64,000 nt of DNA from Octopus vulgaris (Eukaryota), in the NCBI GenBank assembly GCA_951406725.2, contig OX597817.1, forward strand, positions 165,850,001 to 165,914,000. The letters run 5' to 3'. Position numbers and translations under genes: made by a program. Positions 21,812 to 63,790 of the stretch are shown piece after piece (position 1 is the first letter of the stretch; every line of letters starts with the position of its first letter). The notes under the pieces were generated by a model, which did no database searches, had not been told where the DNA came from, and saw nothing but the letters and a program-made list of their open reading frames with translations.

Positions 21812-21951
21812 TAGTTATCGCCATACTAATATGGCATTCTTATAAAAATAAGAATAAAGCTGACCGCTTATTAGCTCCATGAGGCCATCGCCTTAAGTTA
21901 GCTATTTGATACACAAACTGTATCCATATAACCTTTGAACAAGGGAGGTCA
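21812..21951. other. Unassigned structured repeat, copy 1
   Basis: Three-hairpin layout shared with 47701-47940 and 63652-63790. Confidence 0.65.
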
Positions 21952-22299
21952 GTCGCTCCACACTACTTGGCCGGCAGCTACAGACGCGTTTTAGAGAGAC
22001 TTAGTAATTTGAATATTTCTATTATATATATACTATCTCTTTCTCTCTCTCTCTCTCTCTCTCTCTCTCTCTATATATATATATATATATATATATATAT
22101 ATATATATATATATATATATATGCATATATATTGTAAATATACAACTTTGCTTACATATCCACGTTTTAACATACATCTCTTTTCATACCCCACCCTCTA
22201 TCCAAAGTAGCATAATAGTAGGAAAATAGACGCCTGCGCATACTGACATAAGAATATATATAATCTACATACACAATCGTATGTTCGTATATTTCCACT

Positions 22300-22900
22300 C
22301 CTGGCTGTGTTGTAAGAAGCTTGCTTCCCAGCCGTATAGTTCCGGGTTAGTGTTACACTGGGGTAGCACCTCTTGCAAGTGTCTTCTACTCTAGCCTAAG
22401 GCCGACAAAAGCCTTGTGAGTGGATTTGATAGAGGGAAACTGAAAGAAACCCGTCGTATATATATATATATATATATATATATATATATATGCACCAAAT
22501 GGCAGTTGCTAAAAAGCATTCGTGAAGTAAAACCATGTAGCAACACCAAATGGCGGTGCCCCAGCATGGCCACAGCTCGTGAGCTGAAACTAGAATCAAT
22601 CAATCAATCAATCATATATATGTATGTGTGTGTGTGTGTGTGTGTGTGTGTGTGTGTGTGTGTGTGTGTGTGTGTGTGTGTGTGTGTGTGTGTGTGTGTC
22701 TGTATCTGTGTTTGTCCCTCCGCCAACGCTTGACAACCGATTTTGGTGTATTTCCGTCTCTGTAACGCAGCAGTTAGGCAAAAAAAGATCGCTAGAATAA
22801 GTTCCAGACTTGCAGCAAAGAATAAGTCCAAAGGTCGACTGTTCCATCTAAAAGCCGTTGCTCCAGCATGGACACAAAATGAGTGAAACAAGTAAAAGAA
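22300..22900 (+). mobile_element. SINE family B, diverged, with a LINE-type 3' end (about 22492-22612) in its microsatellite
   Basis: Both SINE halves recognisable; insert ends ggtgccccagcatggccacagctcgtgagctgaaactag(aatc)n. Confidence 0.72.
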
Positions 22901-23094
22901 TAAATTAAAAGAAAACATTCAAGTATGCTAGGACAAAACGAAGCTAATGTACGAAATACATTCCTGTATCCATCAGGAGGGAAGGAGGAGGAGGGGAGGC
23001 GATGGAGGAGGAAGAGGATAATCCTTTCTGCCAAAGGCACAAGGCCTGAAATTTTGGAGGAGGAGATAAGTCGATTATACCGAGAGAATCATTA

Positions 23095-23287
23095 TCACAA
23101 CGGGCAAAATGCTTAGCGGTATTTCGCCCATAGCTACGTTCTGAGTTCAAATTCCGCTGAGGTTGATTTTGCCTTTCATCCTTCTGGGGTCGATGAATTA
23201 AGTACCAGTTGCGTGCTGAGTTCGATCTAATCAACTGGCCTCCAACGCCAAAATTTCGGGCCTTGTGCCTATAGTAGAAAGGATTAT
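23095..23287 (+). mobile_element. SINE family A variant with alternative tail
   Basis: A-type body, but tail ggccttgtgcctatagtagaaagg followed by (AAT)n. Confidence 0.8.
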
Positions 23288-58818: not shown

Positions 58819-59299
58819 GTTTTATTTGTCCAGTACCTGCGCTTCACAACTGATGTGTTGATGCGCGTAATTCACTGTAACTTAGAGATTCCTCAAAAAT
58901 CACGATAGAATAAGCATCCCACATAATAACAAATATGTACGGGGCCGATTAATAGGGCTAAAATTTTTCTTCAAGTGCATGCCCCTGCATTGTCGCAGAC
59001 TAGTAACTGAAGCAAGTAAAATATAAAAGATACAGATTGTTAAACATAAACACATATACGCATAGAGATGGATATCTATCTATCTATCTATCTATCTATC
59101 TATCTATCTATCTATCTATCTATCTATCTATCTATCTATCTATCTATCTATCTATCTATCTATCTATCTATCTATCTATCTATCTATCTATATATCTATC
59201 TATCTATCTATCTATCTATCTACCTATCTATCTATCAGTCCTATGAACCCAGAAATCGAAAACAGAGAGTTGCTTATTTGCAAAAAAAAAAAAAAGAAA

Positions 59300-59628
59300 T
59301 ATAAAATGTGACATCATTGACCGAGGTTACCGTGGTCTTTTCCGTAGGCTTTTCTTTTGCACGGGTAAACCTCACCTGTCCTCCCCTTTACACTTCATAT
59401 TGACATTTCTGTGATAACGATCCCTATTGATCAATTTTTTTTCCTCCCCCTTTTTTTTTTTTTTTTTTTAAACCCCCTTTTTTTGTCCTCTTTCTCTCCT
59501 TTTACGATCCTTTTGATCGAAACTCCCCCTTCCTTCTTTTTTTTTTTTTCTTAAACCTTCAAAAGAAAAGCTTTACCTTGTAATTTGTTCTATCTGTGTG
59601 CAGCCCTGTGTGGCTAATAAAGAAACAT
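59300..59628 (+). mobile_element. Probable LINE 3'UTR fragment with a SINE A-like tail
   Basis: Pyrimidine-rich, ends agccctgtgtggctaataaagaaa, then (ATCT)n. Confidence 0.45.
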
Positions 59629-62600
59629 ATCTACCTATCTATCTATCTATCTATCTACCTATCTATCTATCTATCTATCTATCTATCTATCTATCTATCT
59701 ATCTATATATCTACCTATCTATCTATCTATCTACCTATCTATCTATCTATCTATCTACCTATCTATCTATCTATCTATCTATCTATCTATCTATCTATCT
59801 ATATATCTATCTATCTATCTATCTATACACACACACACACACACATATATATATATATACACGCATACGTATGTATACTTACATATATCTACTGATCTTG
59901 CTATATAAATGTCTGCGCACATATATACATGAACGTACACACACAAACATACAGACACATATACACACACAGGCATACATATATGCACACGGGATCACAC
60001 GCATATATAAATATAGTTAGGTATGTTTCGTATAAACATATCCTTGTATATAAGCATGCATTTATATAAAAGTATATATGCATATTTATAAATACATAAA
60101 TGTTTATGCATATTATTGTACACACAAATATATATATATATATATATATATGTATATGTATATGTATATATATATATATATATATATATATATATATATA
60201 TATTGTGTGTGTGTATATATATATATATACATATACATATATATATATATATATACATATATATATACATATATACATATATATATATATATATATACAT
60301 GCTTATATAGATATATACATACATATATACATACATATGCATATATATATATATATATATATATATATATATATATATATATATATATATATATAATATA
60401 TGTATGTATTATATGGAGTATGTACATATGTATATATATATGTATGTTTGCATGTATGCGTATGTTTGTGTGTATTTAAACTATGTATGTTAATTTTATA
60501 GAAAAGTTTACATGCATATATTCAAAGTCAGACATAACTAGTCCGTGTTAGAGACATTATTAAACAGTAAATACATACCGTGCTGGGTGTAGAAAGAGCA
60601 ACCAACATATATATACAGATTTCACTGAGATACAGTAAGAACTGATATATCTATCGTCTGCTCCAGTTCCTCACTCACTGATAAATCTTCTTGGAGGGAG
60701 GCGAGAAAAAATAGTATTCAGTTTACGTCTGTGTACTTTCGCTTCACACACACACACAAACACACACACAAACGTACACACATACGCACACACTCAGTCA
60801 TACACACATACACATGCATGTAAAAGCACACACACACACATACATTATATATGCTGATGCAAAGAGATCTACCGCTTATACCTTAAATTGATAAACACAC
60901 ACACACACACACACACGCACACACACAAACGCACGCACGCGCACACACATATACATACACATATGTTTTCACAGTCTTTCATTGACTGTTAGTTATATAT
61001 ATATATATGTACATACATGAGCTCATAAGTATAAACCCTCACACCAAAGCGTGCCTGCACACACACACACACACACACATACATACATGTACACACAATA
61101 TACACGCACATACAGGCGTAAATGCTATTACTTTCAAATGCATATGCGCACTCACACCCTTGCACATACACACACTCACTATCTCTTATACACATACTCA
61201 AATACAGACACACACATACAATTAAACACTCTCAGACAGTTCCTCGCACTCACACTTACACACACACACACACACACAGATACATATAGAATGACACTGA
61301 TGCTTAGATACAAAAACCACACTTACATACGCATACACAGAGGCTGTTATGTTATTATCTCTTGGGAGATTTTTCTTTCTTAGAAGTTTACAAAACGTAT
61401 TTACAACAATAGCAACAGCTATATATATATATATATATATATATATATATATATATATATATATATATATAACTACTCACATATATGAATAAATACAAAC
61501 ATATATATATATATATATATATATATATATATATATATATATATATATATATATATATATACACATATATATATATATATATATATATACAACACACGCA
61601 CGCGCAACGGTAACAACAGTAAAAACAGCAGCATCAAATCAACGCTATTAATAACACTAGCTGCGGGATGAATACCAAACGATACATGCCACCGAGTCTG
61701 GAAGACAAATTTTCGTATCCCGCTCCCCGCTATTTAGTTGGATCAGAGCAGGAGACAAATTAATATACTTATCCTAAATTCCATAAATATATATACATAT
61801 ATACCAGTTTACCTAGCGGTTAATATATTACATACCTCACATTTCATGAAGTGAGATTAAGAAGTGATAAAACTACAAAATTGAGAAGTGCATCGATGGT
61901 TCAGAGCGCTGATTTATTGATATCTGTTATATCTTTGGATGTGGGACTCGCAATGAAAAGCGCCTTCTTTCAGTTCTTCGAGATTGTCACATTTTCTACT
62001 ACTACTATTACTGCAGTGTGGACTTTAAAATGAACCACAGCACCAATTCTAATACTATCAATCATCCTTGCTTCTATTTTAAGAACAAGGATAGTACTTG
62101 ACTAGTACTTTACCGATCCAGATTGGAAAAAAAAAAAAGCAAAGCTGACCTAGGCGGGATTTGAACTGAGAACAACCTGCGGAACAACTCCACCAGCCAG
62201 AATTTTCTATGCCACTTCAACAATTCTGCCAATCCACTAATCTAACTAACACTACTAATAATGTTAATGGTTTCTAATTTAGGCACAAAACCAGTAATTT
62301 TGAAGAAAGGAGCAGCCAGTATCGTTGATCCTGTTACTTGACTGGTATTTTATGTTATCGACCCGGGAGAAATGAAAGACAAAGATGACATCGGTGGAGA
62401 CTGAACTCAAAATTTACGGCCGGAAGAAATACCACAATGCTTTTTTCTCCGTCACTAATGATTATTATACTAGGCCACCATGTTATACAATGGCTTCAGA
62501 TTTAGGGACCAGGCCATTCGTTTTAGAAGGAGTGTGTATGACGATATCATCGACACCAGTACTTGACTGTTACTTTATTATACTGACGCAGAAGGATGAA

Positions 62601-63651
62601 ATGCTTGGTGCCGTGTACTAGGCTTTCGTTAACTGTTTTAGGTGCTTGAATACTCACGAGCAGAAAGAGTTATATTCTTGGTTCTTTTCTCCCCCGTCCA
62701 GCAGAATATTGAGAATGTAAAAGATGGAGAGAGAGAGAGAGAGAGAGAGAGAGAGAGAGAGAGAGAGAGAGTATTTCTTTATTAACCATGAGGTAGAGAT
62801 AAAGAGGGGACGATACGAGGACAGACAAATCGAACATTGGGGTCAGGGTATCGAATGAGACGAAACGTATGAATAAACAAACAACTAAAATATATACAAT
62901 TAAATGAGAATGAGTGATTTACAAAAAATGAAGCGAAGGACGCGGTCGACCCCACAAACCACATACTCACACTGAAGACTTTGCTTTCTCCTTTTTTACA
63001 TTCTCGATTAAACAGGTTCTTTCACCCGCAACATACTTGCTATAGACTTCCAGAGCGTGCGTGTGTGTGCTGAGCCAGCTTAATTATCAGCTACGAAAAC
63101 TGAAACACTATAAAATGTAATGTCTTGCTCAAAGAGTGTTTTGCACCCAGTCCAGGAACAGGTCATATGATCAAGAATCCAACACTGTAACCACTAGGGC
63201 TACGCACCTTCGCAAATAACGCGCTAGCCAATCCAGGAATCGAACCAGCGAGCGCACAAGCGTTCCTTGCATCACACTCATTCAAACTCTCTACTGTTTC
63301 AGCCTCTTGGTTATCAGTTTCCCTTATCATGTGTTACGGATCCTTGGGCGGATAGAGATAACTTATACAGAAAGGTTTACGAGTTGGTTTGACGATAAAA
63401 TGCACATACTACACTTTGTAAGTTAGTAAGTGATAGAGAGGCATAAGAGTGAAGTAGTGCTGAACCACACGAGCAATGGGGACAGACATTGCCGAATGTG
63501 CCTGCGATAAACAGACGAAACTAGCCTACTTCAGTGGCTTTCCAGCTTTGCTCTTGGGTGGTTATCTCCCCTGTCAGTATATATATATATATATATATAT
63601 ATATATATATATATATATATATATATATATATATATATATATATGTATACG

Positions 63652-63790
63652 TAAAGTATACTAGCCATCTCAATATGGCCAACCACTAAGGGTGGGTGTT
63701 ACTGTAGCTTTTAGCCCCAGGAGATCATCGTCTCCAGCTGGCTTTAGGCACACTTTCTGTGACCTTGTGGTATTTGTAAAGGGAGGTCAT
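63652..63790. other. Unassigned structured repeat, copy 3
   Basis: Three-hairpin layout and downstream aagggaggtca shared with 21812-21951. Confidence 0.65.

What the first reader, a model, noticed from the sequence alone, without database searches (positions are those of the whole stretch)
21812..63790. Unassigned three-hairpin motif with compensatory changes at three dispersed loci
Seen at 21820-21924, 47713-47811 (plus its inverted twin) and 63664-63763. Each has a GCCA...TGGC hairpin, a spacer, then a two-tier stem. The versions are TAGCT-CCA-TGAGG-ccatcg-CCTTA-AGTT-AGCTA, TAGCT-CCA-GGAAA-cgtcg-TTTCC-AGCT-GGCTA and TAGCC-CCA-GGAGA-tcatcg-TCTCC-AGCT-GGCTT. A 6-bp hairpin with a 5-nt loop follows (GATACA/TGTATC versus GACACA/TGTGTC). 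Stem sequences change while pairing is mostly kept, and the CCA/AGYT internal loop and TCG loop end are conserved. I cannot match it to hammerhead, HDV-like, twister, pistol, hatchet, SECIS or tRNA folds. Inference: a selected RNA or ssDNA structure at the end of a mobile element, such as an RT-binding signal or an uncharacterised ribozyme. The strand is undetermined.
Basis: partly seen in the sequence, partly recalled or inferred. Interest (0 to 1): 0.8.

Follow-up and report, generated by a model that had tools for sequence, protein, structure and literature searches.

The report
Structured RNA domain of hammerhead retrozymes
The hairpins are a conserved part of small, very abundant jumping repeats that carry a hammerhead-ribozyme motif, and they likely mark where a Penelope-type reverse transcriptase grips the RNA and starts copying it.

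Summary
The motif is real, but it is not three lone sites. Each window copy is a 5'-truncated insertion of a different subfamily of a 341-363 nt tandem repeat; one tight pattern has 7,240 genome matches (control 1). Read on the window's minus strand, fuller copies carry a type I hammerhead motif about 78 nt upstream of the two-tier stem. All three window sites have lost it. Insertions have two sharp 3' ends 43-63 nt apart, head-to-head inverted copies and (TA)n targets, the footprint of Penelope-like elements (PLEs). These are animal non-LTR retrozymes, a known class.

What I did not find described is the second domain. Across 11 subfamily representatives 12 of 37 pairs change on both sides (at least 16 separate switches on a tree), around a near-invariant ARCU/UGG internal loop. 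The most likely role is docking and start-site positioning for the PLE reverse transcriptase (inferred, untested). Against: the genome's intact PLE lacks the domain and shares only a 12-nt stretch, wobble pairs do not fix the strand, and no RNA, cleavage or circle was shown.

The parts
21808..21991 (-). 5'-truncated copy of retrozyme subfamily A (363-nt unit), from inside the hammerhead's GAAA to 3' end 1, followed by (TA)n
   Evidence: 184 of 184 nt identical to a natural monomer in L032
21977..21991 (-). remnant of the type I hammerhead: part of GAAA, palindromic stem III, predicted cleavage site GUC, 3' strand of stem I; core and stem II lost
21908..21924 (-). hairpin H3 (6 bp, 5-nt loop)
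21859..21867 (-).
21820..21855 (-). hairpins H2 and H1 (GCCA..TGGC), enclosed by PJ, just upstream of 3' end 1
21989..22025 (+). inverted piece of the tail, ending at 3' end 2 and followed by (TA)n (head-to-head partner)
   Evidence: 97% to monomer positions 122-158
47647..47813 (-). 5'-truncated, decayed copy of subfamily B with the tail (about end 2); two-tier stem at 47760-47791; no hammerhead
63649..63795 (-). 5'-truncated copy of subfamily C ending at end 1, TA runs on both sides; two-tier stem at 63712-63744; no hammerhead

Best explanation
The hairpins are a covarying structured domain of a 341-363 nt non-coding, hammerhead-bearing tandem repeat (an animal non-LTR retrozyme), and they likely serve as the site where a Penelope-like element's reverse transcriptase binds the RNA and is set on its two start points. 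Shown from sequence: unit, hammerhead motif, covariation, two fixed 3' ends, head-to-head inversions, TA targets. Inferred from known retrozymes and PLEs: tandem copies are transcribed in the hammerhead sense, cut by the hammerhead working as a dimer (stem III is a short palindrome) and probably circularised. A PLE protein then binds the multi-hairpin domain and nicks (TA)n DNA. It would start cDNA either in the junction closed by helix PJ (end 1) or 43-63 nt further 3' (end 2, 'with tail'), copy round the unit (tandems) or stop early (5' truncation), often with a second, inverted copy started from the other point.
For: Unit and copy number: (7,240 matches, control 1). Hammerhead upstream in 103 of 238 motif copies, mostly 77-82 nt away; cores CTGACGA (G), CTGATGA (D), TTGAAAA/TTGATAA/TTGACAA (A, E, C; the U3-A8 swap reported for PLE hammerheads in PMC4209133); G scores 32.2 bits on Rfam Hammerhead_1, E 1.2e-4. 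Ends: A 15 of 33 at offset 95-97 and 17 of 33 at 158, 31 of 33 followed by a TA run; G 21 of 36 at 93-96 and 14 of 36 at 135-142, 35 of 36 TA; head-to-head entries pair end 1 with end 2 in 14 of 18 (A) and 14 of 16 (G). Covariation: 12 of 37 pairs, 37 cells versus 13.6 shuffled, 0 of 500; RNAalifold finds PJ unprompted; 18 switches on a tree from unpaired columns, 16 after dropping one misregistered pair. An intact RT + GIY-YIG PLE in the genome has the same targets, two ends about 38 nt apart and a U3-A8 hammerhead. In PMC11167929 the two ends of a PLE tail are the two RT start sites, and RNA 3' of the main start site is required.
Against: The domain is not in the terminal repeat of any PLE examined: model hits in 6 of 70 locus entries, read as separate insertions (L190 judged by distance only). 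The link to the intact PLE is one 12-nt stretch noticed by eye, 1 of 5 profiles tested, weak or absent in related PLEs. Wobble pairs barely favour a strand: 19 G-U versus 14 A-C cells. Ends of the older subfamilies are blurred, TA follows in 5 of 32 (B) and 15 of 32 (C). The Rfam score is under the gathering score of 34 and a subfamily A unit gave no hammerhead match. The 11 rows are relatives from one genome, so the shuffle control overstates significance. Neither transcription, cleavage, circles nor binding was shown.
Confidence: 0.6

Rival explanations
1. Same element, but the domain serves the life of the RNA rather than the RT: folding and stability of the circle, holding the hammerhead in check, or binding a host protein or ligase.
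For: The whole unit is strongly self-paired (z -3.7 to -7.5 as a circle), as PMC7229834 reports for other retrozymes; the intact PLE moves without the domain; hairpin H3 and the two-tier stem lie outside the PJ junction.
Against: PJ, H2 and H1 surround end 1 in every subfamily aligned; general self-pairing would not keep a near-invariant internal loop across subfamilies only 48-65% alike.
Confidence: 0.2
2. The structure acts on the reader's strand, as antisense RNA or single-stranded cDNA, for example for endonuclease recognition, self-priming or second-strand synthesis.
Against: Hammerhead and fixed ends define the other strand; the circle folds at lower energy in hammerhead sense in 6 of 7 units; consensus energy -26.9 versus -18.9 kcal/mol (partly due to single-copy decay).
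Confidence: 0.11
3. The domain is a second, new self-cleaving or ligating ribozyme.
For: Near-invariant internal-loop letters inside covarying stems; no Rfam match.
Against: The unit already has a hammerhead motif with a covarying core; no pseudoknot or large conserved single-stranded core was seen (not searched for systematically); the apical loop varies.
Confidence: 0.05
4. The repeats are ends of a DNA element (Helitron/HUH type, MITE or foldback) or plain satellite DNA, and the hairpins act in DNA.
For: Inverted pairs resemble terminal inverted repeats; tandem arrays and AT targets also fit rolling-circle elements (recalled).
Against: Inverted pairs vary in length and centre and use two alternative outer ends; a hammerhead core kept through C3-G8 to U3-A8 swaps points to selection on RNA.
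Confidence: 0.04

Closest known systems
Animal non-LTR retrozymes (PMC7229834, sections 14 and 17 and passages read; bioRxiv 10.64898/2026.07.22.740005, parts 1-3 of 5 read)
   Same: Tandem non-coding units of about 350 nt, GC under 45%, type I hammerhead with palindromic stem III, highly self-paired, sharing the genome with PLEs; mussel units are 350-390 bp.
   Different: The parts I read describe no second conserved domain, no covariation between families, no two-end tail and no head-to-head inversions for retrozymes, and PMC7229834 does not mention cephalopods. Their supplements were not seen. U3-A8 cores are common here.
Pseudo-LTRs of endonuclease-bearing PLEs (Penelope/Poseidon, Neptune, Nematis; PMC8557442 and PMC3846280, passages read; PMC4209133, parts 1-2 of 4 read)
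   Same: Optional 3' tail at one end of an insertion, inverted 5'-truncated copy, partial tandems, microsatellite targets, hammerhead including the U3-A8 variant.
   Different: No ORF; tail 43-63 nt rather than 30-40; no alignable homology to the pseudo-LTRs of the PLEs examined beyond the hammerhead and one 12-nt stretch.
Poseidon element PAc of the green anole (PMC11167929, parts 1-2 of 4 read)
   Same: Order hammerhead, proposed protein-binding region, two RT start sites that bound the tail; RNA downstream of the main start site is needed.
   Different: In PAc that region is the start of the ORF and only an AC-rich stem-loop is described; here it is non-coding, free to covary, about 170 nt from cleavage site to end 1.
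3' stem-loops that LINEs and their SINEs share for RT recognition (recalled, not from a call)
   Same: A structured signal next to the start of reverse transcription in a non-autonomous partner.
   Different: Those sit at the RNA's 3' end and are copied from the partner LINE; here the start is internal and no donor with the same domain was found.

Membership tests
non-LTR retrozyme | short head-to-tail tandem unit (about 150-400 nt) | tested here: met
   natural units of 341-363 nt in 8 subfamilies
non-LTR retrozyme | type I hammerhead motif in the unit | tested here: met
   103 of 238 motif copies have one upstream; Rfam RF00163 32.2 bits, under the gathering score 34, for G only
non-LTR retrozyme | non-coding, GC below 45% | tested here: met
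   GC 0.40-0.44, longest ATG frame 20-55 aa in 8 of 8 units
non-LTR retrozyme | self-cleavage of the transcript | not testable with these tools
   needs in vitro transcription; 1 of 9 Xenopus dimers cleaved in 10.64898/2026.07.22.740005
non-LTR retrozyme | expressed as linear and circular RNA | tested here: inconclusive
   contigs of 4 runs only guessed to be RNA hold the unit, 3 of 4 with the head-to-tail joint, which genomic tandems also give
non-LTR retrozyme | autonomous PLEs in the same genome | tested here: met
   781-aa open RT + GIY-YIG frames in many copies
PLE-mobilised element | two alternative 3' ends (optional tail) | tested here: met
   sharp in A and G, blurred in B; tail longer than the usual 30-40 nt
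PLE-mobilised element | variable 5' truncation with inverted head-to-head copy | tested here: met
   2 of the 3 window sites
PLE-mobilised element | insertion into microsatellite or AT-rich DNA | tested here: met
   31 of 33 (A), 35 of 36 (G), 15 of 32 (C), 5 of 32 (B) ends followed by a TA run
autonomous PLE | RT and GIY-YIG ORF between pseudo-LTRs | tested here: not met
   no PLE protein match in the window; 5 of 140 motif loci have PLE fragments nearby (2 of the 5 read by eye), none shown to be continuous with an intact unit
derivative of a known PLE pseudo-LTR | sequence homology to an autonomous PLE end | tested here: inconclusive
   no blastn or model match to PLE ends; one 12-nt match, 16.9 bits, chosen after the fact
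Rfam RNA family or tRNA | match to a curated model | tested here: not met
   miRNA-model hits come from the inverted duplication and simple repeats, all under their gathering scores

The most novel reading that the evidence does not exclude
This is the first defined RNA recognition and initiation domain for a Penelope-type reverse transcriptase, the sister group of telomerase: a multi-helix junction that straddles the first start site and an ARCU/UGG internal loop, evolved in non-coding circular parasites that capture the PLE protein with a structure the autonomous element does not itself carry.
Probability: 0.35. Interest if true: 0.75.

Novelty: new variant of a known kind. Interest (0 to 1): 0.5.

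Why it matters
How PLE reverse transcriptases pick their RNA and start inside it is open; the one in vitro study narrows the needed RNA to a stretch but not to a structure. That PLEs move animal retrozymes has been argued from co-occurrence and terminal-repeat homology. Here the retrozymes carry the PLE insertion footprint themselves, and nine or more diverged non-coding subfamilies give a natural mutational scan of the RNA around the start sites. Two subfamilies are young (98-100% alike) and an intact PLE frame lies in the same genome, so protein, RNA and target for a direct test are all at hand. If the domain is only for RNA stability, it is an ordinary new retrozyme family.

Tried and rejected
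Rfam: only U6 in the window; no match for the motif. tRNA: none in the window or 6 loci; a likeness to tRNA box A noticed by eye was not pursued. Metagenome pattern scan: 33 hits, 0 with a full inner stem versus 21 of 30 in the genome, so chance. Sequencing runs: no RNA holder listed on record; contigs cannot show strand, ends or circles. Strand from wobbles: the 11-to-1 asymmetry comes largely from single decayed copies, and the family-level count (10 G-U to 1 A-C) is inflated by wrong registers my script chose for H3; I do not use either. My first hammerhead descriptor missed B and most of C and the one at window 31.9 kb. Conservation profile along the unit: the motif (0.57-0.68) is no higher than hammerhead, rod base and tail windows (0.61-0.64), so it is one of several conserved parts. 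Template switch between G and a PLE at L238: rejected, a TA tract lies between them. B as terminal repeat of an old PLE at L081: rejected, another repeat lies between. The covariance model could not be run genome-wide, so more distant subfamilies and an autonomous carrier may be missed; the PLE search rested on the 150 best of 6,136 GIY-YIG candidates. Earlier findings of the scan: nothing in 3 look-ups. Literature: 6 searches showed no description of this domain; Repbase and Dfam could not be searched; a repeat annotation of an octopus genome (PMC13282606, passages) lists Penelope-like families and has no mention of ribozymes.
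Full report
Observation. A stem-loop descriptor finds these four and no others, against 0.03-0.35 expected per shuffled window; a covariance model built later finds the same four. The window is simple-repeat-rich animal DNA from a 2.8-Gb assembly; it looks octopus-like to me, which is recall, not a test.

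Each site belongs to a large family. DNA searches gave 1,513, 444 and 2,430 first-look candidates, of which 40 were scored each time. A pattern that leaves the inner stem free has 7,240 exact matches against 1 for the reversed control, and the free positions pair fully in 21 of 30 fetched loci, against 0 of 33 chance hits in metagenomes. Clustering gave subfamilies A, A2, E, E2, B, D, C, F, 48-89% alike over the motif; G turned up later. The unit is 341-363 nt, GC 0.40-0.44, with no ATG frame over 55 aa, and occurs in head-to-tail tandems. A and G are young: best copies 100% and 96-100% alike.

The unit carries a hammerhead. G and D have canonical cores. A, E and part of C have the U3-A8 swap, which PMC4209133 reports for PLE hammerheads of Schistosoma. 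Stem III is a short palindrome, the form that paper says works as a dimer. Rfam's Hammerhead_1 scores G at 32.2 bits (gathering score 34, E 1.2e-4) and gave no hammerhead match for the C, D and E loci or for A. The window sites lack it: site 1 starts inside the GAAA, sites 2 and 3 further 3'.

The insertions have PLE ends. In hammerhead sense the 5' ends vary and the 3' ends fall at two points. A: 15 of 33 at offset 95-97, 17 at 158, 1 elsewhere; 31 of 33 run into (TA)n. G: 21 of 36 at 93-96, 14 at 135-142, 1 elsewhere; 35 of 36 into (TA)n (the G query included TA letters, which favours end 1). Where a locus has one terminal copy on each strand, end 1 is paired with end 2 in 14 of 18 (A) and 14 of 16 (G) entries, overlapping loci not merged. 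Older subfamilies are less clean: TA follows in 15 of 32 C ends and 5 of 32 B ends. PMC8557442 and PMC3846280 describe this pattern for PLEs: inverted 5'-truncated copy, tail at one end only, microsatellite targets. PMC11167929 shows that the two tail ends are the two RT start sites.

The structure is larger than described. On 11 representatives (medoids or single copies, picked from 123 tail-bearing copies; the other 112 not aligned), 90% of 407 cells pair, 12 of 37 pairs change on both sides, and 37 cells do so against 13.6 in shuffles (0 of 500); sliding the partners drops pairing to 33-44%. On a tree built from unpaired columns this needs at least 18 switches, 16 without one misregistered H2 pair; pair 41:57 switches three times through G-C, A-U and U-A. 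The GCCA/TGGC hairpin is conserved in sequence and shows no covariation. The internal loop ARCU/UGG holds in all rows; the apical loop does not. RNAalifold predicts PJ on its own. PJ encloses H2, H1 and end 1, so it can form only in a molecule that runs past end 1. The rest of the unit folds as a long rod capped by the hammerhead. These rows are relatives from one genome, so the controls are generous.

Strand. Hammerhead and end geometry point to the window's minus strand. The circle folds at lower energy in that sense in 6 of 7 units, with better z-scores in 5 of 7. Wobbles in the motif do not decide it: 19 G-U against 14 A-C cells.

The partner. A GIY-YIG search found many PLEs, among them a family with an open 781-aa RT + GIY-YIG frame, copies 95-100% alike, and an overlapping upstream ORF. 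It has the linker cysteine motif that PMC8557442 gives for Neptune and Nematis; I did not fix the clade. It ends in (TA)n at two points about 38 nt apart and has a U3-A8 hammerhead with the same core and stem III letters as subfamily E. It lacks the domain: over 70 PLE locus entries (30 reach only 1.5 kb past the endonuclease) the model hits 6, on the opposite strand or set apart by TA or host DNA (L190 judged by distance only). One 12-nt stretch about 20 nt before its end 1 matches the profile of PJ's 5' strand at 16.9 bits (0 of 1,000 shuffles; 0 of 1,022 window tiles reach 14), but I chose it by eye, 4 other profiles gave nothing, and related PLEs score 11.0, 6.4, 0.6 or less. It is a lead only.

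Expression. No holder is on record as RNA. Contigs of four runs guessed to be RNA, from three coded organisms, hold the unit or close variants, three with the head-to-tail joint. Genomic tandems give the same, so this shows presence in relatives, not circles.

Mechanism. Shown: unit, hammerhead motif, covarying helices, two ends, inversions, targets. Inferred from PMC7229834 and PMC4209133: transcription, dimeric self-cleavage, circularisation. Inferred from PMC11167929 and the geometry: a PLE protein binds the multi-hairpin domain and starts cDNA at end 1, inside the PJ junction, or at end 2; in PAc too the RNA 3' of the main start site is needed. I put the element class at about 0.9 and the RT-docking role at about 0.6; rivals are RNA stability or host binding (0.2), action on the opposite strand (0.11), a second ribozyme (0.05) and a DNA element (0.04).

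Novelty. Six literature searches and the parts of seven papers I read showed no such domain and no PLE-type ends for retrozymes. I saw no supplements, and Repbase and Dfam could not be checked, so the families may already be catalogued as unclassified or Penelope repeats. Verdict: new variant of a known kind, interest 0.5.

Noticed in passing
window 31697-32025: A second, unrelated head-to-head insertion: a 283-nt palindrome between TA runs, each arm with a U3-A8 hammerhead motif and a 3' end resembling the genome's PLE ends, tail on one side only. It looks like a PLE pseudo-LTR fragment without the motif.
   Followed up: partly
window 17165-17271 (-): Diverged U6 snRNA copy (96.5 bits) with an A run that leads straight into a piece of a common repeat: likely a retrocopy or chimera.
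   Followed up: partly
L174:768-4468, L171:2245-4590: Young intact PLE with a 479-aa upstream ORF overlapping the 781-aa RT/endonuclease frame, and a terminal repeat with tandem CCAAT- and TGACGTCA-like boxes.
   Followed up: partly
L130:652-850 and 1562-1847: A subfamily E copy joined directly to the start of a PLE ORF, present twice in inverted orientation; single case.
   Followed up: partly
L238:2800-4420: A subfamily G tandem and a truncated PLE of another family sit in one TA tract, consistent with a shared target.
   Followed up: yes
L145:200-237 and L178 (minus strand, near locus position 1240-1290): Further hammerhead-like motifs with a CCGA core and a shared TCAGAG stem III region, belonging to neither the retrozymes nor the PLEs studied.
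   Followed up: no
window 11871-12291, 39985-40410, 43911-44354, 45745-46150, 57748-58178 and others; 13212-13853: About ten copies of a 400-nt two-part repeat and a three-unit tandem of a 212-nt repeat, probably SINEs.
   Followed up: no
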